Positions 2,144 to 62,637 are shown, numbered from the stretch's first letter. The stretch is 64,000 nucleotides of DNA from Candidatus Parcubacteria bacterium (GCA_023132875.1 JAGLXN010000017.1:22142-86141), one strand, 5' to 3'. The notes: a model not told the origin generated them from the letters alone. Numbers and translations: made by a program.

Positions 2144-3025
2144 ATGATGAAAAAAACAAGCTTAGGAACAGGATTGTCTTCTTTGATTCCAAACAAATTA
2201 AATAAAGAAAATAATACTCCGTTAGAAAAGAAAAAGTTTTCTAGTTCTAATGAAGTGGTTAAAATTCCGATTGAAAATGTTGCTCCTAACCCAAATCAAC
2301 CAAGATATTATTTTGACGAAGATAATTTAAAAGAACTATCAGAATCAATAAAAGAGCATGGCGTTATTCAGCCCATACTTGTTACGAAAATAGGCAATAA
2401 TAAATATGAGCTTATAGCTGGTGAAAGAAGGCTTCAGGCCACAAAACTGGCAGGAATTAAGGAAATCCCGGCAATTGTCCGATTAGCAACAAATCAAGAA
2501 AAATTAGAACTTGCTCTTATAGAGAATGTCCAAAGGCATAATCTTAACCCGATTGAAGAAGCAAAAGCATATAAAAAACTTCAGACTGAATTTAATTTAA
2601 CTCAGGAAGAAATCGCAAAAAAAACGGGAAAGAGCAGGTCTGCGATTGCAAATATAGTAAGACTTTTAGATCTGCCAGTTGAAATTCAGCGGGGAATTAT
2701 TGAAGAAAAAATAACCGAAGGGCACGCAAGAGCAATTATTGGACTTAAAAATCCGGAAAAGCAACGGGCTTTGTATGAATTGATTTTAAAAAATAATCTT
2801 ACCGTTAGAGGTACTGAGAATAAGGCTAGAGAAGTTACCATACATACTCATAAAAGAAAAATAATAAAACAAACCGATTCGTACATCCAAGATCTAGAAG
2901 ACAAAATCCAACAAAAGCTCGGCACAAAGGTCCAAATTAAAAAAAGAGGCACTTCAGGAAAAATTACAATTGACTTTTTTTCAGAGGAGGAGTTTGAAAA
3001 GATAATCAAGATATTAAATCGTTAA
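2144..3025 (+). CDS. parB: ParB/Spo0J partition protein
   Basis: ParB box GVIQPILV...LIAGERRLQA and an HTH region; located directly after parA. Confidence 0.9.
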   Translation: MMKKTSLGTGLSSLIPNKLNKENNTPLEKKKFSSSNEVVKIPIENVAPNPNQPRYYFDEDNLKELSESIKEHGVIQPILVTKIGNNKYELIAGERRLQATKLAGIKEIPAIVRLATNQEKLELALIENVQRHNLNPIEEAKAYKKLQTEFNLTQEEIAKKTGKSRSAIANIVRLLDLPVEIQRGIIEEKITEGHARAIIGLKNPEKQRALYELILKNNLTVRGTENKAREVTIHTHKRKIIKQTDSYIQDLEDKIQQKLGTKVQIKKRGTSGKITIDFFSEEEFEKIIKILNR

Positions 3026-16929: not shown

Positions 16930-18270
16930 ATGGTTATAACTAAACACAAAAAGCTAACTATTACATTATTACTATTGGCGTCTTTTGTTGTGTCGCCATT
17001 TTTTGGCATAGAAATAAAGCAAAGCAAAGCAGATCTAGTAGAAGAAATTGAAGACCAAATAAACGAAAAAAGTGAAACAGTAAAAAATCTTGAAAATCAA
17101 GCAGAAGAATATAAAGATCTTATAAGAGGGCTTCGGATAGAAGAACAGAGTCTAGAAAATGAAATTGAGCTTCTTGACGCGCAAGTCGCTCAGCTTAATT
17201 TAGAGATTCAAACAACGCAGACTCAGATAGAACAAACAAATCTTGAAATAAATAATTTACTGCTAAGAATCCAGATAAAGGAAGAAGAAATTGAAAAACA
17301 GAAAGATATTCTGAAAAATTTACTGCGAGAGATAAATGCTTATGATAATGAAACAACGCTTGAAATTCTTCTTAAAAGCAAAGAGTTCTCAGAATTTCTA
17401 AATCAAGCTGAATATATGAACACAGTTGGAGGAAAAATTAAAGATGCTCTTGACGAGCTTAATTCAATAAAGCAAGAATTGGAAGAGAAAAAAGAAGAAA
17501 TGAAAGAAAAGAAAAATCAGCTTGAAGAATTAAGCAAAAAATTGTTGGATCAAAAAGAAATAGTAAACGCGCAAAAAAACGCGAAAGAAGCCTTGCTAAA
17601 AGAAACAAGAGGGAAAGAATATAAATACCAGGATTTACTATTCAATGTCAGGAATCAAAGAAAAACGATTTTAGGCGACATAAACAGGCTTAAAAGAGAA
17701 ATGCAGGTTGAGATCGCAAAAATCGCAGCTATGGCAGAAAGGCCTTCGGAAAATCTTGCGTCCACAAGCTGGTATTTTTCCCAAAATAATTCAAGATGGA
17801 AAGATATGACAATCGGACTTTCAAATTCTTCCGTTGATGATTATGGATGCGCTATTTCGTCCGTAGCAATGGTATTTAAATATTATGGGATAGACATAGA
17901 TCCTGGACGGCTTTCAAAACAGCCTATATTCTATTATGATTTAATTGTTTGGCCCAAACAGTGGAGATTTTTGGATTTAATCAAAAATTCATATCATAAA
18001 TCAGGCGGACTTACTAAGGCTGATTGGAATTTAATAGATCGTGAAATCGCCAGCGGACATCCAGTAATTGTATTTATTAAAGCGCTAGGAAGAGGCGCTG
18101 GACATTATGTCGTAATTCACAGCAAAGACTCAAAAGGATATATTGTCCATGATCCCGTCAGATGGAACGGCCAGAGCGGAGCTAATATATATCTTTCAAC
18201 AACAAGGAAATATATAGGTTCTATATATAAAACAAACACTGTTGTTGACCAAATGATCATTTATCATTGA
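16930..18270 (+). CDS. Secreted coiled-coil protein with a C-terminal papain-like cysteine peptidase domain (C39-like); PcsB/EnvC-like architecture
   Basis: Signal/TM segment, about 250 aa of coiled coil, then DYGCAISSVAMV...GHYVVIHS (Cys/His dyad). Confidence 0.6.
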   Translation: MVITKHKKLTITLLLLASFVVSPFFGIEIKQSKADLVEEIEDQINEKSETVKNLENQAEEYKDLIRGLRIEEQSLENEIELLDAQVAQLNLEIQTTQTQIEQTNLEINNLLLRIQIKEEEIEKQKDILKNLLREINAYDNETTLEILLKSKEFSEFLNQAEYMNTVGGKIKDALDELNSIKQELEEKKEEMKEKKNQLEELSKKLLDQKEIVNAQKNAKEALLKETRGKEYKYQDLLFNVRNQRKTILGDINRLKREMQVEIAKIAAMAERPSENLASTSWYFSQNNSRWKDMTIGLSNSSVDDYGCAISSVAMVFKYYGIDIDPGRLSKQPIFYYDLIVWPKQWRFLDLIKNSYHKSGGLTKADWNLIDREIASGHPVIVFIKALGRGAGHYVVIHSKDSKGYIVHDPVRWNGQSGANIYLSTTRKYIGSIYKTNTVVDQMIIYH

Positions 18271-18681
18271 TTTAGCTTCTTAGATTATAGCTTCTTAGCT
18301 TTTTAGGAATTATTTCAGGAATTTTTCAGGATGACAAAATAGAAATGATTTTTTATATTTTACGACATAAAGTTATAATATTTGAAATTAATAAAAGAAC
18401 TTTATGATAAAGATTTGGGCTTAATAATAAAAAGCAATTAATATAATAAAAAAAGATAAACCTAACAACTATACAGAAAAATTTATCCAGAAAAGGGATT
18501 TATCGTTTTTATTAGAAACTAAAGCTAAATTTAAGAACTAATGTCGTAAAAGCTACCTTGTGCGACATTACCACTAACTTTTTTTATCCGCTTCCCTAGC
18601 GGATTTTATGTATATATAACTGAATTGTTAATGTATGTCTTTATTATAATACTTTTAAAATTTGTGTCAAGAATACATTAT

Positions 18682-19035
18682 TTAAATAAACTTATTTATA
18701 AGTGCTCCAAATACTATAAGCGCTAAAGCGAAAATAAGCGAAAATAGTTTATTTATATTATGTTTAAAAACATCACGATCTGTTTCTTTTATTAAGTTTT
18801 TTAGCCCACCTTTTATTTTTAAATCTTTTTCAATTAACAATAAAAAAGTATCTGAAATCATCTCCCTCATTTTTGTTGCTTTTTCTGCTGTTTCACAAAG
18901 CGTGTCTGCTATTTTTTCGTTATTTCCAAACTTATCTTCTAATTGCTCAATCCTTTTCTTAACATTAATAATATCCTCACCATGTTTATCAAGGGATGTT
19001 GTTAGTTTATCTGGATCAAAATCATTCTTGGCCAT
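18682..19035 (-). CDS. Hypothetical tail-anchored protein
   Basis: 117 aa with a C-terminal TM segment. Confidence 0.4.
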   Translation of the reverse strand: MAKNDFDPDKLTTSLDKHGEDIINVKKRIEQLEDKFGNNEKIADTLCETAEKATKMREMISDTFLLLIEKDLKIKGGLKNLIKETDRDVFKHNINKLFSLIFALALIVFGALINKFI

Positions 19036-47837: not shown

Positions 47838-49811
47838 CTATCTAACATTTTCCCCTTTTAAATATAAGCCCAATTCATAGTCCGTAACAATTATTATATC
47901 TTCCCATTTATAGCCGTTGGAGATAAATACATCGGCGCTTGTTATCCATCTTTTATTTCCGTTTTCTATTAAATATACTTTGGGATCGGAGCCTTTTAAA
48001 AGTTTTTTGTCAAAATTGAAATCAGAACTTGTAACATCTTTTCCGTTTGAATACGAATTCAATTCATAATCCGTAACAATTATTATGTCTTCCCATTTAT
48101 AGCCATTTGAAATAAACACGGCAGGGCTTGTTATCCATCTTTTATTTTCGTTTTCTATTAAATACACTTCAGGACTTGATCCTTTTATTAAACTCCCGTC
48201 TGGCTTTAAATCAAAACTTGCTTTTATATTTTCTCCGTTGGGATATAATTCAAGCTCTAAATCTGTAACAATTACTATATCTTCCCATTTATAGCCATTT
48301 GAAATAAACACGGCAGGGCTTGTTATCCATCTTTTATTTTCGTTTTCTATTAAATAGACCCTGCTATCTTTCAGCGATTTTAGAAGAGAATCATTTTTAT
48401 ATTTATTGCTTTTAGCAATTTCTGCAGAAATAGAAAAAGAATATTTATTAATATTATTTCCAAAACCGGAAGTTTTTTTATGGCTTATTGGAATTATTGT
48501 AACAGAAGAGATATTTCTGTCCGAGCAGGAAACATAAAAATCAGAATTTTGCTTATCGTCCAAATTCAATTCGCCGATTTTTTTTGTTCCGTCCTCATAA
48601 GATATAACATAAGAAACAGAAAATTGCCCTATATCTTGTCCGTCAAAATTAATTTTAATTTTATTTTCATTTGCGCAATTTTTTTCCGCTATATCAAGTT
48701 CATAATATCCATTACTCCAATCTTTAATAGAATCATTTATATTTATTGTAACGACGGAGTTTAATTCATAAACATCTTTTGGCTGGATGTGAAAATTTTC
48801 ATAATTAAGATTTTTATTTTGATAGCTATATTTGCTATCCAATGATGTTCCGTTTATATAATTAGTTATAACCCAGTCTTTAAATACAGATTGAAAGGTG
48901 TCATTTTTATAATATAAATCTGATAACGCCTTATTAATGCTTTGAATTCCAACTTTATTATTATCTACCATTCTTTTAAATATTTCTTTCCCGAAACGAT
49001 CGGCTAAGTACTGGGAAAATAAGTTAACGGAAGAATAATCGTATATTTTATTCTGCCACTCCGTAAGCGAATCAACCGGATCAATTTCAAAATTTTTAAC
49101 TCTTGCCCTTAAATTGCTGCCCATATAATCATCGTCATAGCCTATCGCCGTAGAAGCATATTCCGACCTTGCTTCATTCAGCCATATATCGTCTGTAATA
49201 TTTCTTAATTTAGTTTTATGATACCAAGTGATCATATGCTGAAATTCATGCGCGAGAAAACTTTTTATTCTATTATCGCCTATAAAAGATATATTCAAAT
49301 AAACCATCTCTCTTTCGTTGCTTCTTTCGCCGGCTACTTCATCTTTTCTGTATTCATCGCTTGGATTGAAATATCCCCCGATATTTTCTTTTGTCTTTGT
49401 AAAAAGAATTGTAATTTTGCTGTCATTGTCAATCCCTGGATTCCATTCATATCCAAATGCTTCTCTTGTTTTTGGGTACACCGTATTGTCAAAATCTAAA
49501 ACTAAAGAATTTAAATGCGAATTAAATTCTAATTTGGAATTTCTTGATAAATTATTATAATAATCGTCTTCAACATAAAAATATGCGTTTACTCCGATTT
49601 TTTTTAAAGTCGCCGTTATTTCCAAACGCTCGCTGGAATCATAAGAAAGATCAACTAAAAATACTTTATTTTCTTCAAGCTCATTCGCTTTTGCGCTTGG
49701 AATTGCAGTTAATGAAATAATAAATAATAAAACAATACAAAAAAACAGCTTTAATCCTAAAACCGCCAACTCACCCCTCCTGTTAATATTTCTATTTTTT
49801 ATAAATCTCAT
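47838..49811 (-). CDS. Secreted/membrane-anchored putative zinc metalloprotease (HExxH) with three C-terminal tandem repeats of about 62 aa
   Basis: N-terminal hydrophobic anchor; HEFQHMITWYH motif; 3 x VYLIENxNKRWITSxxVFISNGYKWEDIxIVTDxEL. Confidence 0.6.
   Translation of the reverse strand: MRFIKNRNINRRGELAVLGLKLFFCIVLLFIISLTAIPSAKANELEENKVFLVDLSYDSSERLEITATLKKIGVNAYFYVEDDYYNNLSRNSKLEFNSHLNSLVLDFDNTVYPKTREAFGYEWNPGIDNDSKITILFTKTKENIGGYFNPSDEYRKDEVAGERSNEREMVYLNISFIGDNRIKSFLAHEFQHMITWYHKTKLRNITDDIWLNEARSEYASTAIGYDDDYMGSNLRARVKNFEIDPVDSLTEWQNKIYDYSSVNLFSQYLADRFGKEIFKRMVDNNKVGIQSINKALSDLYYKNDTFQSVFKDWVITNYINGTSLDSKYSYQNKNLNYENFHIQPKDVYELNSVVTININDSIKDWSNGYYELDIAEKNCANENKIKINFDGQDIGQFSVSYVISYEDGTKKIGELNLDDKQNSDFYVSCSDRNISSVTIIPISHKKTSGFGNNINKYSFSISAEIAKSNKYKNDSLLKSLKDSRVYLIENENKRWITSPAVFISNGYKWEDIVIVTDLELELYPNGENIKASFDLKPDGSLIKGSSPEVYLIENENKRWITSPAVFISNGYKWEDIIIVTDYELNSYSNGKDVTSSDFNFDKKLLKGSDPKVYLIENGNKRWITSADVFISNGYKWEDIIIVTDYELGLYLKGENVR
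47871..48360. repeat. Three tandem direct repeats of about 188 bp (high nucleotide identity) encoding the C-terminal protein repeats
   Basis: CAATTCATAGTCCGTAACAATTATTATATCTTCCCATTTATAGCC ... recurs at about 47871, 48058 and 48249. Confidence 0.8.
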
Positions 49812-50533: not shown

Positions 50534-53047
50534 TTATAAATTTTGTTTTCTAATGTTGCTCTGAACTGTTGGCTTTACCCTAACCTCCGATCTTTCCAAT
50601 ATCTCCCTCTCTATAATTTCTCTATTTTTGCCAAATTTCAGAGTTGAAAGCTGTTTTATGGCTTCTGCAACTTCCGCGCTTCCTTTTTGCGGCGGATAGG
50701 TTGCCATATTAAATCCTTGGCTTATTGTGCCTCTTATCATCATCTTAATATAAGCGTTAAAATTATCAATATTTATCAGATCCTGTTCGTTAAAAACAGG
50801 CTTGAATTGTTTTGCCATAAACTCAGCGTCTTCCGGTCCAATTCGAAAAGAAATCATTGTTCCAACATTTCCAAATACAGATTTTTGTATTTCTTCAGGA
50901 AGCTGTCCCAAGAACTGATGAGCAATATTCAGCGATAGCCTGTATTTTCTCGCTTCTGAAAGAATTGTTGAGATGCTGTCAGTCGTGAAATTCTGAAATT
51001 CGTCAATATAGAAATAAAAATCTTTTCTTTCTTCCTGAGGCATATCAGTTCTACTGAGCGATGCGACTAAAATTTTTCCAACTATCACAAGACCAAGCAA
51101 ATAGGCGTTCATTTCTCCGATCTTTCCTTTTGAAAGATTGACAAGCAGAATTTTTTTGTTATCCATAATTTCCCTGAAATTGATAGAGCTTTTCTGCTGT
51201 CCGATAATAGGACGCATCGTATCATTAGAAATAAATTGTGTCAGCTTGCTTGTTATATAAGGAACCATATTAGCCAGCGCGGCTTCTCCTCCAGCCTTTT
51301 GAGCTTCTTTTTCCCAGAAATTTTTCACGGTAAAGTTTTCACATTTTGACAATTTGTATTTTCTAAATTCTTCATCGGCAAGCACTTTTGAAATTTCAAT
51401 TAAAGTCGAGCCTGACGCTGGATCATCCATAATTAAAAGCATCGCATTTCTCATATATTGCTCAAACATAGGACCGCCTGTTGCTTTTAAGTCATAAAGC
51501 TTGTCAAATATCTTTATCATTTCATTTATAACGAAAGTTTTTTGTTCCGGATAATTTTCATCATATTCAAGAAGATTTAATCCCATTGGTTTTTGAACAT
51601 TTGACGGATCAAACAGGACCACGTCTTCGGCACGCTCTTTCGGCACGCAGCCTAAAGCGTCTTCCACAAGATCGCCATGCGGATCAATAACGCAGAGCCC
51701 TTCTCCATTTTGTATATCCTGCCTTATTAACTCTCCTAAAAATCCAGATTTACCCGTTCCAGTTTGTCCAATTATATACATATGCCTTCTGCGGTCTTCT
51801 TTCTCTATTTTAATTATTCTATCTTCTCCTCTATGCGTATTATGCCCCAAAATTAAGCCTTCATTTGGAATATCAGAAGGCGCGGAAGCTTGTTTTGCTT
51901 TCAGCCATTTTACTTGCGGAGTAGCGGTCGTAGAAATTGGAAAATGAAACAAACTTGCCAGTTCCTCCGTATTTAAAATTATTTTTCTTTTCTTTTCAAA
52001 ATTTCTAAATATAAAATTATATATGGTTCTGTTTAAAAACCCCGCTTTATTTAAAAATGTTTCTTTAACATTTAGCGAATTAGAATCCGGCAAATTAAAC
52101 TGAGAAAAAGAATTTTCAAGCTCTTTTAACAGAGTTTCGGCTTTTTCTTTTGTTCCAGCTGAAGTAACAAGGCGCACATTGATTTCAAAGCCAATTTTGG
52201 TTGATTTTGCCTCTACCGCTTTCATAACTTCTTCCTGCGATGGCGTTAAATTTACTTTTACCTCCTCTTTTTGCTGATCTTCCGCTGATTTTCCTCCCGC
52301 GCTTATTATTCCTATAAATTCTTTTAATACTTTAACTGGCAAAGAAGGTTTTCCCTGTTCGCCGAATCCTTTGCCTTTTTGCATTAGTTTCATTCTTTCT
52401 TTACTCTCGCTCTGCCAAGAATTGCCGGATGGTTTTATCACAAATTGGAGAGCCGCTCCTTCTCCGATTGGAATCTTGCTAAGCGCGTTTGTCATGCTTG
52501 AAAGCGGATCGGCTTCAAGATGCTGATATGTTTTTATCGGAAAAATGTCATTTCTTTTTAGCATCATATATGAAGCCGCTGATCCTCCATCTGGCACAAA
52601 AATATTATAGTCTTCTATCTGCGTTATTTCCGCGTCGGCATAAAAACTGTGAATTTGTTTTTCTATGATAGATTGAAATTTTTTTGGAACCGAAACATAG
52701 AAAAATATCTCATTGCTGTCAATCGGAGTGGCAATTTCAAAAGACAAATAAAATGGACCATAAATGATTTTCTTAAGCATTTCTTCCCTGATATTGCTCA
52801 AGCTCGCGAAAAGCTGCTCCATTACGGAAATATTCTCTTTTTCTTTTTCGCTTTTATTTTGCGGCTGATCTTCTATTATTCTTGGAACAGAGACTTGCAA
52901 CACGATCATATTAAGAGATCTTGTGATTTTTCCAGTGCTAGAAAGCCTCATTTTTACATAAATAAACACAACTATAAAAATGACCAGTGCGATTGCAAGA
53001 TCTAAAAGACCAATTTCGATTATATAATTGCTTATAAATAGTTCCAT
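50534..53047 (-). CDS. Membrane-anchored VirB4/VirD4(TraG)-family type IV secretion/conjugation-like AAA ATPase
   Basis: N-terminal TM; Walker A IIGQTGTGKSGF; DPHGD; Walker B FYFYIDEFQNF; C-terminal ARKYRLSLNIAHQFLGQL resembles the T4CP/VirB4 C-terminal Q-x-x-x-Q motif. Confidence 0.65.
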   Translation of the reverse strand: MELFISNYIIEIGLLDLAIALVIFIVVFIYVKMRLSSTGKITRSLNMIVLQVSVPRIIEDQPQNKSEKEKENISVMEQLFASLSNIREEMLKKIIYGPFYLSFEIATPIDSNEIFFYVSVPKKFQSIIEKQIHSFYADAEITQIEDYNIFVPDGGSAASYMMLKRNDIFPIKTYQHLEADPLSSMTNALSKIPIGEGAALQFVIKPSGNSWQSESKERMKLMQKGKGFGEQGKPSLPVKVLKEFIGIISAGGKSAEDQQKEEVKVNLTPSQEEVMKAVEAKSTKIGFEINVRLVTSAGTKEKAETLLKELENSFSQFNLPDSNSLNVKETFLNKAGFLNRTIYNFIFRNFEKKRKIILNTEELASLFHFPISTTATPQVKWLKAKQASAPSDIPNEGLILGHNTHRGEDRIIKIEKEDRRRHMYIIGQTGTGKSGFLGELIRQDIQNGEGLCVIDPHGDLVEDALGCVPKERAEDVVLFDPSNVQKPMGLNLLEYDENYPEQKTFVINEMIKIFDKLYDLKATGGPMFEQYMRNAMLLIMDDPASGSTLIEISKVLADEEFRKYKLSKCENFTVKNFWEKEAQKAGGEAALANMVPYITSKLTQFISNDTMRPIIGQQKSSINFREIMDNKKILLVNLSKGKIGEMNAYLLGLVIVGKILVASLSRTDMPQEERKDFYFYIDEFQNFTTDSISTILSEARKYRLSLNIAHQFLGQLPEEIQKSVFGNVGTMISFRIGPEDAEFMAKQFKPVFNEQDLINIDNFNAYIKMMIRGTISQGFNMATYPPQKGSAEVAEAIKQLSTLKFGKNREIIEREILERSEVRVKPTVQSNIRKQNL

Positions 53048-53293
53048 AATAAATTAATTTTATAATTTTTAAATTTTTAAATTTTTAAAATAAATCTTAA
53101 TTTTTAATTTTTAAACACGAAATTAAAATGTTTATTAAATTAAGTAACAGATTAGATATAGCAATTTAAAGATCTTGAACTAAATTCAGAGCCTGTCCTG
53201 AATTCAGTTCAGGAATGACGGATGCTTCGCATCTCGTAATTAAAAATTTAGTCATTAAAAATTATTTAAAAATTATAAAATTTAAAAATTCTA

Positions 53294-53728
53294 TCATATA
53301 TCTTTCAGCTTCCCTTTTTTCACAAGCTCCTCATGAAGTTCCCCTATCAGCCTGTCATGCAGTTCATCCAAAAGATAAGCGTCATTTAAGCTTCTCGCGA
53401 CTTTTATGCTATGGCTTATACCTTTTTCAAACGCTAAAACCGCGAGTTTTTTCACTTGTCCCGCTGTATCTAAGTTTTTTAATTCTTCTATATCCTTTTT
53501 AAAATTCTTTTTATCTTCTTTATCAGCAACTATTGTTTGCGCCTGTGTAGAGCTTGGAACTGTCGGCAAAGATTGCTCTTGGATATTCTCTTTTGTTATT
53601 TCCGCCTCTTTTATTTCAATCCCAGAACCTTCCGCTTCAATTCCAAGAGCCGCCTTTTTCTTAGAAAGTTCTTTCTCTAATTTTTCAATTTCTTGAATAT
53701 TAGGATTTTCATTATTTATTTCAGACAT
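53294..53728 (-). CDS. Hypothetical acidic protein
   Basis: 144-aa ORF. Confidence 0.4.
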   Translation of the reverse strand: MSEINNENPNIQEIEKLEKELSKKKAALGIEAEGSGIEIKEAEITKENIQEQSLPTVPSSTQAQTIVADKEDKKNFKKDIEELKNLDTAGQVKKLAVLAFEKGISHSIKVARSLNDAYLLDELHDRLIGELHEELVKKGKLKDI

Positions 53729-53763
53729 AGTTTTAAAAGTTTAAAGTTTATAAAGTTCATAAT

Positions 53764-54918
53764 TTATTTGCTTTCCTGACCATATTTATAATCCGAAAAA
53801 AACCACGCCCAATCTGGGACTTTCCCAGTTCCGGTAATCCAAGCCATAAAACCGTCTCTTTTTTTTTCATCTATCAAAGTATATCCAGCCATAAGACATC
53901 CTATTATCGCGGCTGATTTGACGGCGCCGGCAAGTTTAAGCATAATTCCGGTTTCCGCTATCACTTCAGCGGCTGGTGCCGCCAAAGAAACAAATCCTAC
54001 CGCCAAGGCAATGAGAGTCGCGTATTTCAATAATTCCGGATGGTCTTTAAGAAATTTAAGAAATTTTTCAAGCAAATCGCCTTCTTCTTCGCCAAGCCTT
54101 TCTAGTCCCTTATCAAAAAACAAAGCTGCCTTTTCAAGATTTTCAATTTCCACAATGCAGTAAGCATGATTCTCAAGCAGTTTATCGGGATTATCAAGCT
54201 TAGCTTCTATATATTCAAGTTTTCTAAGATCTATTTCATTTTTAATGACTGTCGAAAGAGATCCGAGAATTCCCATTAATTCTTCTTTTTCGTCTTTTTC
54301 AAGTAGATTGCAGACTTCGTTCTGACTCAAAAGATTTTTAAATTTTTCTTCCATATCTTTATATTTTTCAGTGCTTTCCTTAACAGCCTTTTTAATTTCT
54401 TTTTTCTTTTTCGCAACCTCAATCCTTGATTCTTCAATCTCTCTTTTTCCTTTTTTGAATTCAAACCTTTCTTTAAATTCAAGATCTTTCTCTTCAATGG
54501 CATCTTCTTTTTTTTCATCATCTTTCGTCTCCCACTCAGCAATTCTCCTATTATTCTTTATATCTTTCTCTACCGCCATCCCAATTTCTTCCACTATTTT
54601 TTCTTCCTTAGACGTTAATTTCTCTTTGTTATCTCCCATCATCTTACTGAGTATTTCTTTATGATCTTCTTCCGATATTTCTGTTTCAAAATCAGACAGA
54701 TTTTCCTCGCTGTCTCTAACGTTTTTTCTTCCTTCTTTTATGATTTCATCAGCTTTAGGATTACCCTGTTCTTCTTCTAAAATTTCTTCAATATTTTTTT
54801 GACTTTCATTTACATTGCATGAATCAGATTTAATTTGAGTTTCTATATCTTCAGCTGTTTGATTTTCCGCGCCTTGCTCTGATGCTGTTTCTAACAGTTT
54901 TTTATCTGGATTTTTCAT
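53764..54918 (-). CDS. Hypothetical Glu/Lys-rich protein with C-terminal two-helix hydrophobic hairpin
   Basis: 384 aa; C-terminus ...LIALAVGFVSLAAPAA...AAIIGCLMAGYTLI. Confidence 0.45.
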   Translation of the reverse strand: MKNPDKKLLETASEQGAENQTAEDIETQIKSDSCNVNESQKNIEEILEEEQGNPKADEIIKEGRKNVRDSEENLSDFETEISEEDHKEILSKMMGDNKEKLTSKEEKIVEEIGMAVEKDIKNNRRIAEWETKDDEKKEDAIEEKDLEFKERFEFKKGKREIEESRIEVAKKKKEIKKAVKESTEKYKDMEEKFKNLLSQNEVCNLLEKDEKEELMGILGSLSTVIKNEIDLRKLEYIEAKLDNPDKLLENHAYCIVEIENLEKAALFFDKGLERLGEEEGDLLEKFLKFLKDHPELLKYATLIALAVGFVSLAAPAAEVIAETGIMLKLAGAVKSAAIIGCLMAGYTLIDEKKRDGFMAWITGTGKVPDWAWFFSDYKYGQESK

Positions 54919-54927
54919 AGTTTTATA

Positions 54928-55122
54928 TTAAAATTTTTTAATTTTATCTCTCGCTTCTTTTATCTTTTTTTTATTAATCAGATTTATCGCTCTTTCAATT
55001 AATTTTGACTGTTTTCTGATTAAAACAAGCATTTTAGAGTGAAATTCATTAAACAGCTTATTCAGCTTTTCATTTTTCCTCTTATCACTGTCTGATTTAT
55101 TGTCCATTTTGATATAATTCAA
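54928..55122 (-). CDS. Hypothetical small basic protein
   Basis: 64-aa ORF. Confidence 0.3.
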   Translation of the reverse strand: MNYIKMDNKSDSDKRKNEKLNKLFNEFHSKMLVLIRKQSKLIERAINLINKKKIKEARDKIKKF

Positions 55123-55128
55123 AGTTTT

Positions 55129-55440
55129 TTATGCTTCAATTTTTAATTTGATATCTAATAATTCGTCCTTGGTTATTTTTACTTCTTCGTCAAAGATTTT
55201 CTTTGCGTCAGGATTTTTCGCAATCAAAAATTCTTCCATTTTTTCAAGATCGTTTTTAGAAACCGCCTCAAACTCCGTGATTTCCTCCTCGCTGAAGTTT
55301 TCCATAATTTTCGCTCCGGCTCTCTCACTTATAAGCTCCAATACTTTTGTCAAAACTTCATTTTTATTTTCTTCCGGCATTGAATCCAAATTAAGAGATT
55401 CAATCAGATATTTTGTTGTTTTTTCATCAATTAGTTTCAT
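55129..55440 (-). CDS. Hypothetical small acidic protein
   Basis: 103-aa ORF. Confidence 0.35.
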   Translation of the reverse strand: MKLIDEKTTKYLIESLNLDSMPEENKNEVLTKVLELISERAGAKIMENFSEEEITEFEAVSKNDLEKMEEFLIAKNPDAKKIFDEEVKITKDELLDIKLKIEA

Positions 55441-55464
55441 ATATGCAATTTATATTATTAGAAA

Positions 55465-58400
55465 TTATTTTTTCGTTTTCACATCTTCAATAATATTTTT
55501 TAGATCAATTATTGATAAATCTTTGTCTTTATTTAAAATATTTTCTATTATCTGTCTATGTTTTTCGTTATTAATTTTATCTTTAATTTCAACAACTTTT
55601 AGTAATTTTTGATTATCTGACGAAACTTTGTTTAATTTCAATTCTAATATTTTTATAATTTTGTCAAGATCTTTTGTTTTTACACCATTTGATAAAAGTA
55701 TTCTTGATATTTCTAATTTTTTTGCAGTTTCAATTTCAACTTGATTATCTTCTGTCTCATCATTTTGATCTGAATCAAGATTATCTCTATAAGTTTTTAA
55801 TTCATCATAAATTTCTTTTACCTCTTTAACTGCCAGATCTTTAATTCCTTCTTTTTCTAATAATTCTTTTAATTTTTTATTATTAATACTGTCTTCCATG
55901 CCATTCTTAATAAGTTTACCAATTTTTTCGCCCTCATTAACAAAACTTGCAAAACCAACCAACGCGCCTAATTCTTGAACTGCTTTTTCGTCATTTTTTA
56001 GTTGTTCTATTATTTCTATCTTAAATTTATTAGAATCGCTATCTTGCTGTTCGTTAGTTTGATTTTCATTAGTTCTTATAGATTCTCCTTTATCTCTAAT
56101 CTTCTCTTTAAAGATATCTTCAACTTTACTGAGCATTTTATTTAGATATTCTTTTGGATTATTCAGATCATCAGGAAGTTTTTCAATTTTTATTCTTGAT
56201 TTTTCAAAAAATAATTCAATATTTCTACGCTTATTTTCAATATCATCTTCAGCATTTATTCTTCTAAGAACATTTTTAATATTTATTGTGTAAGCATCTT
56301 TTATTATTTCTTCGGTTTTATTGTTAAAATCAGGAGAAAGACAATGAATATCTTCTAGCACTGTTTCAAATTCATTCGCCAATCCTTGTTCTGAAATTGA
56401 ATTTAAATCTTTTCTCTTTCCTCTGCTGAACATTTCATTTACTCCAGATATTGTTTTTACTTTTTCTGCTTTTTCCTTCTTTTTAAATGGATCTTTTAAT
56501 CTTTCTCTAACAGCATTTTTAACGGCATTCCCCAATTTTCCGACAGACGGAAATGTTCTTCTTTGCTTTTTGCTTTTTTGCATCTTCATCTCTAGTCCCA
56601 TTTTCAACATTTTAGTCGCGTTTAAAAGCGCAAAGCTATCTTCGCATCGTTCTCGCGCTCCTAAAATACCTTCTTTTACGGATTTTCCGATTTCTTCTTC
56701 TAAACTGCGAACATGATCTGTAAATATAGCAGAGCTCTCATCTAACACTATTCCTATTTCCAATTCTTCAATTCTTTCTATTATTTTTCTTTCTTCGTCC
56801 GTTAAATCTTCCCACGGAATAGAAAGTATGTCTTTATTTTCTTTTCTTAATTTTTCTATTTCAATCGTCTTTCTTAAAGATTCCTTCCTGGCTTCGTTTA
56901 ATTCAAATTTTTTAGGTTCTTTGATTTTATCTTTCGCCGGTTTTTCTCCTGTTTTATCTTCTTCCGGTTTGTCTTCTTGCGATCCCTCCTTAATTTTCTT
57001 CGCGCTTATCAATAAGCCTAAATATTCTTCAAATTCTTGATATTTATCTATTTTAGAAATATCTGCACTTCTACCGTCAGCTTCTTTCTCAATATCTTCT
57101 AAATATTTTTTAATCTTTTCTATTTCCTTGTCCAATTTTTCAGGGCTCATTTGTCTAACGTCTTCTTCACTTTCAGTATTTGGAATTTTTTCAAGTATCT
57201 CTGGCTGTTCTGTTTGGACTGCTTGATTTTTTTCAACAGCAACATTAATGCCATTTTCTTTAAAATCTATATCGATATCATAATAAATTTCATTTTCATA
57301 ATATAAACAAACCAAAACAGAATCTTCGGACTTTTTATGCACATTAAATGCTTTTAAAGAATCTGGCAAATTATAATCTGAACCTATCTCCTCATAAAGA
57401 ATAGTAAGCGCAGTTTTCCAATTACTTTCTATTTTTTCTCCTTTTTCCTCGTTTAAAAAAGATCTCATTTTTTCAAGCCGTTCTCTTTCTAATTCATAAT
57501 ATTTTTCATTATTGTTTTCTGAACCTTCTAAAATTCCTTCTGCTTCTATAGACTGTACTCCGCTTCCTTTTTCTATTTTATCCAAAAGTTCGTCAAATAA
57601 TCCCATAATAATATCATTTATTCTTTTTCTGTTTTCTTTGTTATCTTCAAGCTTAAAGTCTTCAAGTATACTCTTAATATCTTCGTCAATGCTATTTTTA
57701 ACAGATTCTCTAGCTTTTTCTTTTCCCTCGTTTTCATAAACTTCTCTTAATGAACTTCCATCTTCAAATTCTTCCTCTACAGCACCTTTTATAGAGTCCT
57801 CTAAATTTTTCCAATTTTTCTCAATATCTTCTTCTTCGGTTTTTGCAATTATAGTTTTAGGTTTTTCTTGTTCTATTTCTTTAGTTTTTTCAATACTCTC
57901 AAATTTACCCTCCAATTCACTTAAAATCCCATATCCAATCACCTTGTATGATGTTAAAATTTCGTTCTTATTTTCTCTGCTTTTTATTTTGAAATTAAAA
58001 CTGTCAAGCAATTCTTTGTCTTTAGGATCCATATTTTCAATAGTAAGATCTCGAATCTTATTTTTGATTTTTTTAGTATATGATTTTTTGTCACTACTTT
58101 TTTCATATTCTTCTTTCAATATTTCATAAACATTATCTTTAAGCTCATCCCATTTTTCTTCTTCTATTTCATTTTCTGTTTCATTAATTACCGGTCTGTT
58201 TTCTGGTCCTGTTTTTTCTTCTTCTGGTTCCTGAACCGATTTTACATCTTCTGGTTCTGTTGTTTCTTCTTCTAAAGAATCTTTTTCATCAAAAATGCCG
58301 CTACTTTCTTCTAGCGCTCTAATCTCTTTTTCAATCTCTTCTATTCGTTTTCCTGTTATCTCTTTTAAACTGGGACTACCAAGTTCCTCTTTTTCTCTAC

Positions 58401-58836
58401 GCAATTTAGCAAGATCACGGTTTAATTGTTTTAATTTTTCTTCCTTTCTCTCATTTTCTATTTCCAGTTCTTGAACTGATTCTATATTTTTCGGTTCTGT
58501 TTTTTCAGTTTCTACTTCTGGTTGCTCTGTTGATTCATTTGTTGTCACGCTTTTTATATTTCCATTAGAAAACTTTTCCTTCGCCTCGTTTATTTTAATA
58601 ATTCTTTCTGTTTTTAATGTTTCTATTCCTTTCGCCCAGCCTTTTGGTGTTTTTTCTCTTAAATCATCAATTCTTTCATCATATGATTTATTAATTTCAT
58701 ATAATTCTCTATTTAGCTCCTCGGCTTGTTTCGTTTTTATTGTTTCCTTACCTGAAAATTTCTTTTGTAAATCTGAAATATCAAATGTTTTTTCTTTTTT
58801 AGTTTTTCTGGCTGTTTCAAATTGATTTCTTCCCAT
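55465..58836 (-). CDS. Giant (1123 aa) Glu/Lys-rich coiled-coil protein, no signal peptide
   Basis: Continuous ORF with low-complexity heptad-like E/K composition. Confidence 0.5.
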   Translation of the reverse strand: MGRNQFETARKTKKEKTFDISDLQKKFSGKETIKTKQAEELNRELYEINKSYDERIDDLREKTPKGWAKGIETLKTERIIKINEAKEKFSNGNIKSVTTNESTEQPEVETEKTEPKNIESVQELEIENERKEEKLKQLNRDLAKLRREKEELGSPSLKEITGKRIEEIEKEIRALEESSGIFDEKDSLEEETTEPEDVKSVQEPEEEKTGPENRPVINETENEIEEEKWDELKDNVYEILKEEYEKSSDKKSYTKKIKNKIRDLTIENMDPKDKELLDSFNFKIKSRENKNEILTSYKVIGYGILSELEGKFESIEKTKEIEQEKPKTIIAKTEEEDIEKNWKNLEDSIKGAVEEEFEDGSSLREVYENEGKEKARESVKNSIDEDIKSILEDFKLEDNKENRKRINDIIMGLFDELLDKIEKGSGVQSIEAEGILEGSENNNEKYYELERERLEKMRSFLNEEKGEKIESNWKTALTILYEEIGSDYNLPDSLKAFNVHKKSEDSVLVCLYYENEIYYDIDIDFKENGINVAVEKNQAVQTEQPEILEKIPNTESEEDVRQMSPEKLDKEIEKIKKYLEDIEKEADGRSADISKIDKYQEFEEYLGLLISAKKIKEGSQEDKPEEDKTGEKPAKDKIKEPKKFELNEARKESLRKTIEIEKLRKENKDILSIPWEDLTDEERKIIERIEELEIGIVLDESSAIFTDHVRSLEEEIGKSVKEGILGARERCEDSFALLNATKMLKMGLEMKMQKSKKQRRTFPSVGKLGNAVKNAVRERLKDPFKKKEKAEKVKTISGVNEMFSRGKRKDLNSISEQGLANEFETVLEDIHCLSPDFNNKTEEIIKDAYTINIKNVLRRINAEDDIENKRRNIELFFEKSRIKIEKLPDDLNNPKEYLNKMLSKVEDIFKEKIRDKGESIRTNENQTNEQQDSDSNKFKIEIIEQLKNDEKAVQELGALVGFASFVNEGEKIGKLIKNGMEDSINNKKLKELLEKEGIKDLAVKEVKEIYDELKTYRDNLDSDQNDETEDNQVEIETAKKLEISRILLSNGVKTKDLDKIIKILELKLNKVSSDNQKLLKVVEIKDKINNEKHRQIIENILNKDKDLSIIDLKNIIEDVKTKK

Positions 58837-58945
58837 ATTTTTAACTTAAACTAATAAAATTTTATTTAAAATAAACCTCTTAATTTCTAACCCGCGTAAA
58901 CACTAAAGAATATCACAATTTTACAAAAATGTCAATACTTGAAAT

Positions 58946-60045: not shown

Positions 60046-60729
60046 TCAAAGAGATCTGTCAGTTTTGCTTGCTGAAGGCGAAGGTGTGTTTCTTAAATCT
60101 GATCCTTTGCTTTTGTACTTATATGGATTACTTTGTCCTGTTATCCCTCTTTTAAGCTTATCAATATCTCTTTTTCCAAATTCTTTTCTCATTTTTTTTA
60201 TGTCAATTCCTTCTTCTGTTACTTTTTTAAATTTAGTTCCTGTAAATCTTTTACTTTTAAATCTTCTTGTAAATTCATCAAAATCCTTCTTTTTTAAAAC
60301 TGACTTTGTCGGATTATAAGCCTTTACGGCTCTTAAGAAGTCCATTTTTTTCTTCAAAGAAACTCCGTGCACTTTATGTAAGGCTTTTTCCATCTTCTTT
60401 GTTCCGCTTAAGCCAAAATCATTAAGCCTGTTATGCCTGAAAACTTTTAATTTATGATCATAGGTTTTTTTCTTTACCATGATTAGCTGGCCGCCTATCA
60501 TTTTTTGTTCTTGTTCGCTTTCTTTCTCCGGCTTTTTTTCTTTTTCCCTATCTTTTCTTGATCTCTCTACTGCTTCTTTTTTTCTTTCTTCATATTCTTC
60601 CCTCTCTTTTTCTAATCTATCTATTTCTTTTTGAAATTCTTTATTTTCCCTGTCCATTTTATTACTATTTTCTTCCTGACTTTCTATTCCACTATCGCTT
60701 TGTTCATTTTTTTTATCATCATCATCCAT
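60046..60729 (-). CDS. Hypothetical Glu/Lys-rich protein with basic C-terminus
   Basis: 227-aa ORF. Confidence 0.4.
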   Translation of the reverse strand: MDDDDKKNEQSDSGIESQEENSNKMDRENKEFQKEIDRLEKEREEYEERKKEAVERSRKDREKEKKPEKESEQEQKMIGGQLIMVKKKTYDHKLKVFRHNRLNDFGLSGTKKMEKALHKVHGVSLKKKMDFLRAVKAYNPTKSVLKKKDFDEFTRRFKSKRFTGTKFKKVTEEGIDIKKMRKEFGKRDIDKLKRGITGQSNPYKYKSKGSDLRNTPSPSASKTDRSL

Positions 60730-62319: not shown

Positions 62320-62637
62320 TTGGCTCTAACCGTAGTAATTGAAAATTATACAAAACCAAAAAAAATAGTAACATTGGAAGATTTTCGTGGTTCAAAAAAC
62401 GATAAAAATATATGCGATCATTGCGGGAGAAAGGTTGATAAGGTTGATGATGAGAACAAACAAGAGCACGAATGTAAAACATGCCATAACAAATTTACGG
62501 GAAGAATATTGACATGTGTAAACCCAAGATGTAATCCAGTAATCTTTTTTTGGGAAGTAAAGGGTTTAACGGTAACAACATGTTCTCAATGTGGATTGAA
62601 TAATTGTAAAGAAGTTCTTCGCAATGTTGAAAACTAA
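62320..62637 (+). CDS. Small cysteine-rich (10 Cys, paired CxxC) zinc-ribbon-like protein with a canonical strong SD and TTG start
   Basis: AAGGAGGG 6 nt upstream of TTG at 62320; CDHC...CKTC...CVNPRC...CSQC. Confidence 0.45.
   Translation: MALTVVIENYTKPKKIVTLEDFRGSKNDKNICDHCGRKVDKVDDENKQEHECKTCHNKFTGRILTCVNPRCNPVIFFWEVKGLTVTTCSQCGLNNCKEVLRNVEN

What the first reader, a model, noticed from the sequence alone, without database searches (positions are those of the whole stretch)
53294..58836. Operon of Glu/Lys-rich coiled-coil proteins (1123 aa giant plus four smaller) transcribed towards the VirB4-like ATPase
Five co-directional genes (1123, 103, 64, 384 and 144 aa) with tight spacing lie upstream of the ATPase. 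The products are extreme E/K low-complexity coiled coils with no signal peptides, and the 384-aa protein ends in a two-helix hydrophobic hairpin. No homology is recognisable by eye. The gene order giant fibrous protein, small basic and acidic proteins, membrane-hairpin protein, ATPase suggests a single undescribed envelope-spanning or cytoskeletal nanomachine.
Basis: inference. Interest (0 to 1): 0.65.

Follow-up and report, generated by a model that had tools for sequence, protein, structure and literature searches.

The report
Coupling-ATPase gene cluster with novel partners
In this ultra-small (Patescibacteria/CPR) bacterium, a membrane-anchored ATPase of the kind that feeds DNA or proteins into conjugation-type secretion systems sits next to a set of uncharacterised, highly charged helical proteins; two of the small ones travel with the ATPase across dozens of related genomes, so they mark an undescribed accessory module for an ATPase whose role in these bacteria is unknown.

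Summary
The five minus-strand genes exist exactly as described. They are Glu/Lys-rich (29-34% against 15-18% in neighbours), lack signal peptides, and lie 6-35 nt apart upstream of an 837-aa ATPase.

Two labels are wrong.
- The ATPase is not VirB4-like. It is a VirD4/TrwB-type coupling protein (T4CP). Full-length homologues sit at the T4CP position of Bacillus and actinomycete conjugation operons.
- The proteins are not demonstrably coiled coils.

Linkage to the ATPase is strong for two genes. The 144-aa family lies directly upstream of the ATPase in 71 of 77 related loci, and in 3 of 3 reverse look-ups. It has about 1,000 cluster representatives, no Pfam family and no informative fold match. 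The 103-aa protein (Pfam DUF5663) is present in 59 of 77 loci.

The 64-aa protein, the 384-aa protein and the giant are specific to this clade and evolve very fast (18-24% identity where the ATPase keeps 78%). A long acidic protein always occupies their position.

Most likely this is a chromosomal, relaxase-less coupling-ATPase module with novel adaptor proteins and a fast-evolving cargo or scaffold. The mechanism is inferred. No paper in the searched library describes it.

The parts
58907..58935 (-). Promoter-like site (TTGACA, 17 nt, TATTCT, with TG) 71 nt upstream of the giant gene; a possible operon promoter
   Evidence: Consensus scan only. The region holds 60 such sites against 42.5 expected from shuffles, so this is weak evidence.
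55465..58836 (-). Giant acidic protein: 1123 aa, net charge -57, E+K 32%, no membrane segment. It contains a conserved beta-rich module at aa 444-577.
   Evidence: ORF and composition. No hit in Pfam, NCBIfam, PHROGs, PADLOC or PDB. Only 20-24% global identity to the positional counterparts in sister genomes. The aa 444-577 module is found in the L010 giant and in the L011 membrane-hairpin protein.
55129..55440 (-). 103-aa acidic helical protein, member of Pfam DUF5663
   Evidence: Pfam PF18908, E 3.8e-5, 24.6 bits against a cut-off of 23.7. Homologues are present in 59 loci, directly upstream of the 144-aa family in 53 of them. All 25 diverse members match DUF5663.
54928..55122 (-). Small basic protein: 64 aa from TTG, or more likely 59 aa from the ATG at 55107; net charge +12; specific to this clade
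   Evidence: ORF. The public annotation gives 59 aa. Homologues of 54-65 aa lie at the same position in 6 loci only.
53764..54918 (-). 384-aa acidic protein with a C-terminal pair of marginally hydrophobic helices (aa 296-314 and 331-349) and a conserved tail (DEKxRDxFMAWITGTGKVPDWAW); specific to this clade
   Evidence: Only 9 homologues were found in 5.8 billion proteins. Its C-terminal region was found in 6 loci. The AlphaFold model is poor, with mean pLDDT 48. No Pfam or PDB hit.
53294..53728 (-). 144-aa protein: N-terminal helix, disordered linker, and a conserved C-terminal four-helix domain (aa about 85-144, motif Y-x-L-D-x-x-H-D-x-L). It is the constant partner of the ATPase.
53196..53214 (-). 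7-bp hairpin (TCCTGAA-CTGAA-TTCAGGA) inside the 246-nt gap between the 144-aa gene and the ATPase gene. No T tract follows it. Role unknown.
   Evidence: Sequence. A 51-nt fold gives -16 kcal/mol, z = -2.2.
50534..53047 (-). 837-aa membrane-anchored coupling-protein-type ATPase: N-terminal anchor (aa about 12-30), DUF8128 region, then a Walker A/B NTPase domain (aa about 400-800)
   Evidence: Pfam DUF87, TrwB_AAD_bind and TraG-D_C, all above cut-off. DUF8128 comes from precomputed hits. A profile search against PDB gives TrwB 7e-8, DotL/IcmO 8e-6, HerA 6e-4 and no VirB4. Full-length homologues sit in monoderm conjugation operons. G427, G430, G432, K433, E683 and R700 are invariant.

Best explanation
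Shown:
- The window comes from a Paceibacteria-type Patescibacteria (CPR) chromosome.
- The ATPase is a type IV coupling protein (T4CP; the VirD4/TrwB branch of the FtsK-HerA superfamily) of the kind used by conjugation systems of single-membrane bacteria.
- Here it is chromosomal and set among housekeeping genes. No VirB4, relaxase or integrase was found among the ORFs of the 64-kb window that were scanned.
- Its constant neighbour is the 144-aa helical protein. Its frequent second neighbour is the 103-aa DUF5663 protein.
- Upstream there is always at least one long, acidic, fast-evolving protein without a signal peptide. In many lineages one of these carries Gly/Ala-rich membrane helices. 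In this clade that job is split between the soluble 1123-aa giant and the 384-aa hairpin protein, and a 59-64-aa basic protein is added.

Inferred mechanism:
- The hexameric ATPase is held at the cytoplasmic face of the membrane by its N-terminal anchor.
- The 144-aa protein, through its conserved C-terminal four-helix domain, and DUF5663 act as dedicated adaptor or regulatory subunits that dock on the ATPase.
- These adaptors connect the ATPase to the long acidic proteins. Those proteins are either its cargo, handed to the distantly encoded VirB4-type secretion system that these bacteria use at the host contact, or its membrane-tethered scaffold.
- The arrangement works like a type IV coupling complex in which the relaxase and its accessory proteins have been replaced by new, lineage-specific partners.
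For: - Family of the ATPase. Homologues of 23-26% identity covering aa 100-800 lie beside TcpE/PrgI (VirB3-like), VirB4-like ATPase, replication-relaxation and cell-wall hydrolase genes on Bacillus and Embleya plasmids.
- Catalytic residues are invariant.
- Linkage: 71 of 77 loci for the 144-aa family and 59 of 77 for DUF5663, with median gaps of 49 and 31 nt. Reverse look-ups were 3 of 3.
- A long acidic protein without Pfam domains occupies the upstream position in the loci examined.
- A module of the giant (aa 444-577) sits inside the hairpin protein of a sister genome. This ties the two fast-evolving genes together.
- Conservation falls in steps: ATPase 77-79%, 144-aa protein 60-65%, DUF5663 46-52%, 64-aa protein 27-47%, 384-aa protein 18-24%, giant 20-24%. 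This fits a conserved motor with adaptors and a diversifying cargo or interface.
- None of the five proteins has a signal peptide, as expected for cytoplasmic partners or T4SS-type substrates.
- Housekeeping context: EF-Tu and the S10 ribosomal operon lie downstream; radical-SAM, WecG, ParAB and tRNA synthetase genes also lie in the window.
- The literature reports 5,713 VirD4-like T4CPs in 2,918 of 3,035 Patescibacteria genomes, only 148 of them near virB4, with relaxases rare. The authors raise exaptation (PMC12102498).
Against: - No physical interaction was tested, and complex modelling was not available.
- The 246-nt gap with a hairpin and AT-rich promoter-like sequence allows the ATPase its own transcript.
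- The giant and the 384-aa protein are not conserved outside the clade. The Moranbacteria membrane proteins at the same position show no profile similarity to the 384-aa protein (probability about 1%). The 'same role, different protein' claim therefore rests on position and composition alone.
- The T4CP of the one genetically tractable Patescibacterium was not essential for epibiotic growth (PMC12102498), and I did not show that it belongs to this subfamily.
- Cargo and scaffold roles cannot be told apart with these data.
Confidence: 0.4

Rival explanations
1. A self-contained machine that does not depend on the VirB4 secretion system. The exapted coupling ATPase, together with the membrane-hairpin protein and the long acidic proteins, forms its own translocation or remodelling apparatus, for example for DNA or protein transfer at the host contact.
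For: The ATPase is unlinked from virB4 here and in nearly all Patescibacteria. In Moranbacteria the large protein at the same position has a cytoplasmic helical domain, 2-3 Gly/Ala-rich membrane helices, a Pro-rich linker and a C-terminal domain that would lie outside the cell. The module is conserved as a unit.
Against: In this window no component has an extracytoplasmic domain or a polytopic channel-like membrane domain. The only membrane elements are the ATPase anchor and a marginal hairpin. Coupling proteins characterised so far work with a VirB4-type channel (established knowledge of T4SS).
Confidence: 0.25
2. Only the 144-aa protein, DUF5663 and the ATPase belong together. The giant, the 64-aa protein and the 384-aa protein are unrelated, fast-evolving charged proteins that happen to lie upstream, and their composition simply reflects an AT-rich genome.
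For: These three genes are confined to about 7 loci and are nearly unalignable between sister genomes. Another E/K-rich protein (227 aa, 60046-60729) lies nearby outside the cluster. Nothing links them biochemically to the ATPase.
Against: Gaps of 6-35 nt on one strand. The gene order is kept in all clade members. A long acidic protein occupies the position next to DUF5663 or the 144-aa gene in the other lineages examined too. A module moves between the giant and the hairpin protein. E+K is twice the local background.
Confidence: 0.15
3. A cell-division, chromosome-segregation or cytoskeletal module. The ATPase would act like FtsK/SpoIIIE, and the charged helical proteins would act as DivIVA/GpsB/EzrA-like scaffolds.
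For: The ATPase is very highly conserved (52-57% identity between Paceibacteria and Moranbacteria), and the context is housekeeping. The best PDB hit of the DUF5663 profile is the GpsB N-terminal domain, at E 0.027.
Against: The GpsB hit is not significant, and none of 25 DUF5663 members hits the DivIVA family at E<=0.1. The ATPase scores with TrwB, DotL and TraD far above FtsK (Pfam FtsK_SpoIIIE E 0.038, below cut-off), and its full-length homologues are conjugation proteins.
Confidence: 0.1
4. A remnant of a mobile element: an integrated conjugative element or prophage carrying its coupling or packaging ATPase and cargo genes.
For: Coupling proteins are typical of conjugative elements. The ATPase matches PHROG 5156 end to end (E 8e-91) and has 20-24% identical homologues in Bacillus phage G and SPO1-like phages.
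Against: No integrase, relaxase, VirB4 or phage structural gene was found in the ORFs scanned from the window. GC content matches the surroundings. The cluster is syntenic across many genomes between housekeeping genes. The 144-aa family is absent from 2.9 million viral contigs, and only partial or distant ATPase homologues occur there.
Confidence: 0.03

Closest known systems
Type IV coupling proteins of monoderm conjugation systems (e.g. the 'DUF87 domain-containing protein' WP_121549396.1 on B. subtilis plasmid NZ_CP032854.1; WP_331738717.1 on Embleya plasmid NZ_CP108778.1); more distantly TrwB of R388 and DotL/IcmO
   Same: Homology runs over aa 100-800, including the region N-terminal to the NTPase domain (23-26% identity). 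It shares the N-terminal membrane anchor and the Walker A/B motifs. It matches Pfam TrwB_AAD_bind and TraG-D_C, and TrwB and DotL are its best solved relatives.
   Different: In the plasmids the gene is embedded among VirB3-like, VirB4-like, relaxase-like and cell-wall hydrolase genes. Here it is chromosomal, none of these lies among the ORFs scanned in the 64 kb, and it is preceded by proteins that have no homologue next to the plasmid or phage copies.
Orphan VirD4-like T4CP homologues of Patescibacteria (Microb Genom 2025, PMC12102498)
   Same: Same phylum and same kind of ATPase. The paper reports that these genes are nearly universal, mostly far from virB4, usually without a relaxase, and may have been exapted.
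   Different: The paper analyses the virB4 neighbourhood, not the neighbourhood of the T4CP. The passages I read do not mention the 144-aa family, DUF5663 or the long acidic proteins.
Legionella Dot/Icm type IV coupling complex (DotL with DotM, DotN, IcmS, IcmW, LvgA); comparison from my own knowledge of the literature
   Same: It works alike in outline: a membrane T4CP served by small acidic adaptor proteins of 100-200 aa and by a membrane partner, which together recruit substrates that lack signal peptides, some through Glu-rich motifs.
Bacillus phage G gp156, SPO1-like phage homologues, and PHROG 5156 (function unknown)
   Same: The same full-length ATPase architecture (81-84% coverage). 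In phage G it lies next to a gene annotated as VirB-like.
   Different: Identity is 19-24%. It sits in a phage genome, and no homologue of the 144-aa protein, DUF5663 or the 384-aa protein lies nearby.

Membership tests
   There is no VirB4-type family among the Pfam hits at E<=0.1 or the NCBIfam hits. No VirB4 chain appears among the 30 PDB sequences matched by the ATPase profile at E<=1.
Type IV coupling protein (VirD4/TrwB/TraD/TcpA type) | P-loop NTPase of the FtsK-HerA superfamily carrying T4CP signature domains | tested here: met
   Pfam TrwB_AAD_bind 32.1 bits (cut-off 20.5), TraG-D_C 23.7 (cut-off 22) and DUF87 36.5 (cut-off 23.2). PDB profile search: TrwB E 7e-8, DotL E 8e-6. The Walker A residues G427, G430, G432 and K433, plus E683 and R700, are invariant.
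Type IV coupling protein (VirD4/TrwB/TraD/TcpA type) | N-terminal membrane anchor | tested here: met
   The hydrophobic segment at aa 12-30 has a summed insertion energy of -1.6 kcal/mol and is followed by K/R residues. There is one long segment, whereas two helices are usual.
Type IV coupling protein (VirD4/TrwB/TraD/TcpA type) | Full-length homologues occupy the T4CP position of conjugation operons | tested here: met
   The Bacillus and Embleya plasmid homologues lie next to TcpE/PrgI, a VirB4-like ATPase and a replication-relaxation protein.
Type IV coupling protein (VirD4/TrwB/TraD/TcpA type) | Reaches the curated score of a named T4CP equivalog | tested here: not met
   The best NCBIfam hit, the CD1115-family VirD4-like protein, scores 48 bits against a cut-off of 250. 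The TraD models score 19-39 bits against 366-647. It is therefore a distinct subfamily (DUF8128+DUF87).
Type IV coupling protein (VirD4/TrwB/TraD/TcpA type) | Genetic linkage to a T4SS (VirB4) and/or a relaxase | tested here: not met
   Neither was found among the window ORFs scanned. This agrees with 148 of 5,713 T4CPs lying near virB4 in the phylum. The rest of the genome could not be examined.
Pfam DUF5663 (103-aa protein) | Score above the Pfam gathering threshold | tested here: met
   24.6 bits against 23.7, covering aa 12-91 of the protein and positions 1-81 of the 84-position model. All 25 diverse positional homologues match, with a best E of 1.4e-11.
VirB2 pilin or VirB3-like protein (suggested for the C-terminus of the 384-aa protein) | Match to VirB2/TrbC, T4SS pilin or VirB3/PrgI family models, or to solved structures | tested here: not met
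   No Pfam family at E<=0.1, and no PDB sequence at E<=1 with a 9-sequence profile. The structure model is too poor for a fold comparison (pLDDT 48). Only the two-helix topology resembles VirB3.
   No Pfam family above noise; the only hit has E 0.084 and is unrelated. NCBIfam gives none and PDB gives none at E<=0.01. There is no signal peptide.
Coiled-coil proteins | Long stretches with heptad periodicity of hydrophobic residues | tested here: inconclusive
   My own crude heptad scan flags 3% of the giant, 15% of the 384-aa protein and 0% of the three small proteins, against about 1% or less in shuffles. No established predictor was available. AlphaFold gives helices but with low confidence for the 384-aa protein.
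Dot/Icm-type adaptors (IcmS/IcmW/LvgA) | Fold or sequence similarity of the small partners | tested here: not met
DivIVA/GpsB (considered for DUF5663) | Significant match to the DivIVA/GpsB N-terminal domain | tested here: not met
   The best PDB hit is GpsB at E 0.027 over 42 positions. The DivIVA family does not appear among the families listed for the 25 members scanned against Pfam at E<=0.1 (41 families matched, the first 25 shown).

The most novel reading that the evidence does not exclude
The near-universal 'orphan' coupling ATPase of Patescibacteria has been rebuilt into a new machine that does not depend on VirB4. Its own conserved subunits are the 144-aa family and DUF5663, together with a lineage-specific, rapidly diversifying acidic protein that is membrane-inserted or exported. 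The machine would carry out a core task of the epibiotic lifestyle, such as moving DNA or protein across the single membrane at the host contact.
Probability: 0.25. Interest if true: 0.8.

Novelty: new variant of a known kind. Interest (0 to 1): 0.55.

Why it matters
Patescibacteria make up a large share of bacterial diversity, live attached to other microbes, and depend on a conjugation-derived secretion system. Almost every genome carries about two VirD4-like coupling ATPases that are not encoded with that system and whose role is unknown (PMC12102498).

This locus shows that one such ATPase subfamily has a fixed genetic partner. That partner is a family of about 1,000 sequence clusters with no Pfam entry and no informative structural match. 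The ATPase also has a frequent second partner (DUF5663) and a fast-evolving acidic protein next to it.

This turns 'orphan T4CP, possibly exapted' into a defined set of candidate subunits and cargo. They can be tested by complex prediction, pull-downs and metatranscriptomics. The steep conservation gradient singles out the long acidic proteins as candidates for the part that meets the host.

Tried and rejected
1. VirB4 identity of the ATPase: rejected.
2. Homology between the 384-aa hairpin protein and the membrane region of the large Moranbacteria proteins at the same position. Three profile-profile comparisons gave probabilities of 0.4-9%. Only position and architecture are alike.
3. Structure of the 384-aa protein. 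AlphaFold with 9 sequences gave mean pLDDT 48, so I ran no fold search on it.
5. DUF5663 as a GpsB/DivIVA-like domain. The match is marginal (E 0.027) and the Pfam scans do not support it.
6. Phage or defence origin of the five proteins. There are no PHROG or PADLOC hits. The 144-aa family is absent from the viral contigs.
7. Fusions of the 144-aa domain to other domains as a functional clue. The best 150 representatives listed are short (83-277 aa) and no fusion to a large protein was seen.
8. Internal repeats in the giant, or alignment to sister giants. BLAST found only three short segments.
9. Structured RNAs in the window. Rfam found only two tRNAs.
10. Literature on DUF5663, DUF8128, or on DUF87 together with 'candidate phyla radiation': no papers. 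Searches for Patescibacteria or CPR with VirD4 or coupling protein turned up only PMC12102498 as relevant.
11. Whether FtsK is absent from Patescibacteria. The literature search was uninformative, and TM7x papers do mention FtsK.

Full report
**1. What is in the sequence**

The window is AT-rich (GC about 0.28-0.35). The ATPase gene is carried, with the same neighbouring genes, on an 831-kb metagenome scaffold. The closest genomes are MAGs named Paceibacterota, Parcubacteria and Moraniibacteriota, that is Patescibacteria/CPR.

On the minus strand lie, in order of transcription:
- a 1123-aa ORF (58836..55465)
- a 103-aa ORF (55440..55129)
- a 64-aa ORF (55122..54928; the public annotation starts it at the ATG at 55107, giving 59 aa)
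- a 384-aa ORF (54918..53764)
- a 144-aa ORF (53728..53294)
- an 837-aa ATPase gene (53047..50534)

The gaps are 24, 6, 9 and 35 nt, then 246 nt before the ATPase. A promoter-like site lies 71 nt upstream of the first gene. No terminator-like site separates the genes on that strand, apart from one chance-level match inside the giant.

Glu+Lys makes up 29-34% of the five products, against 17.6% in the ATPase and 15.4% in the next gene. None of the five has an N-terminal hydrophobic segment.

**2. Corrections to the description**

The ATPase is not VirB4-like.
- Pfam gives DUF87 (HerA central domain), TrwB_AAD_bind and TraG-D_C, all above their cut-offs.
- NCBIfam gives VirD4-like and TraD models, all below their curated cut-offs.
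- A 12-sequence profile finds TrwB (7e-8), DotL/IcmO (8e-6) and HerA (6e-4) among solved structures, and no VirB4.
- tblastn against plasmids finds homologues of 23-26% identity covering residues 100-800. That span includes the region N-terminal to the NTPase domain, which precomputed hits call DUF8128.
- On a 24.7-kb Bacillus subtilis plasmid the homologue is followed by a replication-relaxation protein, conjugal transfer proteins, a TcpE-family (VirB3-like) membrane protein and a second large ATP-binding protein.
- On an Embleya plasmid the homologue lies between a PrgI-family protein plus an ATP-binding protein on one side, and a replication-relaxation protein plus an NlpC/P60 hydrolase on the other.

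That is the position of the coupling protein (T4CP) in conjugation systems of single-membrane bacteria. It fits the published conclusion that the Patescibacteria type IV system derives from monoderm conjugation machinery (PMC12102498).

The 'coiled-coil, low-complexity' label is not established.
- The five proteins contain 28-34% core hydrophobic residues.
- A crude heptad scan of my own flags 3% of the giant and 15% of the 384-aa protein.
- The giant holds a conserved beta-rich module at aa 444-577.
- AlphaFold models the 144-aa protein as an N-terminal helix, a disordered linker and a four-helix C-terminal domain, with pLDDT 80-85 over that domain.

The hairpin of the 384-aa protein is marginal.
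- Summed insertion energies are +1.7 and +4.0 kcal/mol. Bona fide membrane helices of the neighbouring Na/Ca exchanger give -1.9 to +2.0, and a buried helix of the ATPase domain gives +3.0. The scale values were taken from memory of Hessa et al. 2005.
- Both helices carry conserved charged residues.

**3. Is the cluster a unit?**

I fetched 80 loci around ATPase homologues from one genome per species, called ORFs, and searched them with iterated profiles of each window protein.

- Of 77 loci with at least 700 nt upstream, 71 have a homologue of the 144-aa protein directly upstream on the same strand (median gap 49 nt). Three more have one gene inserted, and three have none.
- DUF5663 homologues are present in 59 loci. 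In 53 of them DUF5663 lies directly upstream of the 144-aa gene (median gap 31 nt).
- In the other six, which are the window's own clade, 1.4-2.6 kb is inserted between DUF5663 and the 144-aa gene. The insert holds the 64-aa gene and a 384-aa-type gene.
- Homologues of the 64-aa protein and of the C-terminal region of the 384-aa protein were found in that clade only (6 loci each; L004 adds a BLAST-level 384-aa-type homologue).
- As a reverse check, three divergent members of the 144-aa family, found by a profile search of 5.8 billion proteins, were looked up in their own contigs. All three lie immediately upstream of a DUF8128+DUF87 ATPase.
- An exhaustive profile search finds 1038 cluster representatives of this family (539 at E<=1e-10). 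The best 150 listed are short proteins of 83-277 aa, and no homologue with precomputed domain data carries a Pfam domain.

**4. The variable part**

Upstream of the small genes there is always a long, charged protein without Pfam domains.
- In Moranbacteria this is a 700-1600-aa family, 49 of 59 loci in one BLAST cluster. It has a conserved cytoplasmic helical domain, two or three Gly/Ala-rich membrane helices, a Pro-rich linker and a C-terminal domain. It is often preceded by a further charged protein of 400-600 aa.
- In more distant lineages it is a 466-535-aa protein with a disordered N-terminal half, a helical stretch and a small C-terminal domain.
- In the window's clade the giant has no membrane segment, and the separate 384-aa-type protein carries the hairpin.

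Profile comparisons find no homology between the 384-aa family and the Moranbacteria membrane region. The equivalence therefore rests on position and architecture only.

Within the clade, the aa 444-577 module of the giant is found in the giant of L010 and in the hairpin protein of L011. This links the two fast-evolving genes to each other.

Identity to four sister genomes falls in steps: ATPase 77-79%, 144-aa protein 60-65%, DUF5663 46-52%, 64-aa protein 27-47%, 384-aa protein 18-24% and giant 20-24%.

**5. Context**

The cluster lies between a Na/Ca exchanger gene and tRNA-Gly. Downstream follow a secreted HExxH-type protein, EF-Tu and the S10 ribosomal protein operon. ParA/ParB, several aminoacyl-tRNA synthetases, Mur ligase, FemAB, FtsQ-like and SecY genes fill the rest of the window.

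No integrase, relaxase or VirB4 was found among the ORFs scanned. GC content does not differ from the surroundings. The 144-aa family is absent from 2.9 million viral contigs, and only partial or distant ATPase homologues occur there. A mobile-element origin of this locus is therefore unlikely.

The ATPase family does reach into phages. It matches PHROG 5156 end to end, and Bacillus phage G and SPO1-like phages carry 19-24% identical homologues.

**6. How it most likely works**

Shown:
- The ATPase is a membrane-anchored coupling-type ATPase with intact catalytic residues.
- It has a constant small helical neighbour and a frequent second one.
- A long acidic neighbour without a signal peptide evolves fast and, in many lineages, is membrane-inserted.
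- The ATPase is genetically separated from the VirB4 system and from relaxases, here and across the phylum.

Inferred:
- The 144-aa protein and DUF5663 are adaptor or regulatory subunits of the ATPase.
- They couple the ATPase to the long acidic proteins, which serve as cargo or as a membrane scaffold.
- In outline this is how type IV coupling complexes work. In Legionella, DotL is served by the small acidic adaptors IcmS and IcmW and by the membrane partner DotM (my own knowledge of the literature).
- I found no sequence or fold similarity to those proteins. The claim is 'works like', not 'is a member of'.

I put this at about 0.4. The main rival, at about 0.25, is that the module is a machine of its own that no longer depends on VirB4. 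Lesser rivals are that the giant, the 64-aa protein and the 384-aa protein are bystanders (0.15), that the module serves division or segregation (0.1), or that it is a mobile-element remnant (0.03).

**7. Novelty**

The ATPase superfamily and the abundance of orphan T4CP homologues in Patescibacteria are known (PMC12102498). The conserved neighbourhood is not described in any paper I could find. It consists of a new family of about 1,000 clusters, plus DUF5663, plus a diversifying acidic protein.

I rate it a new variant of a known kind. It would surprise a specialist moderately. It is useful because it gives concrete candidates for what the orphan coupling ATPase of these bacteria acts on.

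Noticed in passing
window 50534-53047 (-); L083 5851-8328; L084 5881-8412: The ATPase matches PHROG 5156 (function unknown) end to end (E 8e-91). It has 19-24% identical, roughly 81-84%-coverage homologues in Bacillus jumbo phage G (gp156, next to gp155 annotated 'VirB-like') and in SPO1-like phages, where small membrane-protein genes precede it. The DUF8128+DUF87 architecture is therefore shared by CPR chromosomes, Gram-positive conjugative plasmids and large Bacillus phages.
   Followed up: partly
window 57106-57507 (aa 444-577 of the giant); L010 1033-3804; L011 7535-9262: A conserved beta-rich module of the giant ('SVLVCLYYENEIYYDIDIDF') sits in the giant of one sister genome but inside the membrane-hairpin protein of another. 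Modules appear to be shuffled between the two fast-evolving genes.
   Followed up: partly
window 53196-53214 (-), within the 246-nt gap 53048-53293: A 7-bp hairpin (TCCTGAA-CTGAA-TTCAGGA) lies just after the 144-aa gene, with no T tract, and is followed by very AT-rich promoter-like sequence. The fold z-score is only -2.2. In other lineages the median gap between the 144-aa gene and the ATPase is 49 nt.
   Followed up: partly
window 47838-49811 (-): A 657-aa protein with an N-terminal signal or anchor, a weak match to an HExxH metalloprotease domain (NCBIfam MXAN_6640 family, E 8e-6, below cut-off) and three near-identical C-terminal repeats of about 50 aa ('YLIENENKRWITSPAVFISNGYKWEDI.IVTD'). 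It is conserved downstream of the ATPase and tRNA-Gly in the close clade (57-81% identity).
   Followed up: partly
window 60046-60729 (-): A further charged protein (227 aa, E+K 32%, net charge +20) with a stretch that fits a single-alpha-helix pattern (aa 33-66). The Na/Ca exchanger gene separates it from the cluster. Homologues were found in two sister loci only.
   Followed up: no
L012-L082 (Moranbacteria-type loci), e.g. L043 6327-8795, L054 5885-9166, L027 5789-8953: The large protein that precedes DUF5663 in Moranbacteria has a conserved cytoplasmic helical domain of about 140 aa, 2-3 Gly/Ala-rich membrane helices, a Pro-rich linker and a C-terminal domain that would lie outside the cell. 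It has no Pfam or PHROG hit. This is the only candidate envelope-crossing part seen in any version of the module.
   Followed up: partly
window about 18000-19000; parA 1292-2098, parB 2144-3025: GC skew and gene orientation both switch at about 18-19 kb: plus-strand genes with positive skew lie before it and minus-strand genes with negative skew after it. This looks like converging replication. The point maps to about 440 kb of the 831-kb scaffold, yet parAB lie only about 16 kb away.
   Followed up: no
loci L012, L014, L019, L023 and many others (record titles): Many MAGs that carry this typical Patescibacteria module, with ATPases 52-56% identical to the window's, are titled 'uncultured Bdellovibrionales', 'Micavibrio', 'Candidatus Saccharibacteria' or 'Bathyarchaeia archaeon'. 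These are probably mislabelled or mis-binned records.
   Followed up: no
L105 204-482 (IMG/VR contig IMGVR_UViG_3300048050_000023): A 92-aa ORF on a viral contig matches the DUF5663 profile (E 1.6e-4). It lies about 6 kb upstream of a 412-aa protein related to the ATPase domain only. This may be a DUF5663 protein in a CPR phage.
   Followed up: no
window 62320-62637 (+): A 105-aa ORF rich in Cys-x-x-Cys pairs, which looks like a zinc ribbon. It is the only plus-strand gene called in this stretch and lies between the radical-SAM and WecG genes. It has no Pfam hit on record.
   Followed up: no
window, 30 nt upstream of each gene between 47838 and 60729: None of the eight genes examined has a recognisable Shine-Dalgarno sequence. 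The leaders are almost pure A/T.
   Followed up: no
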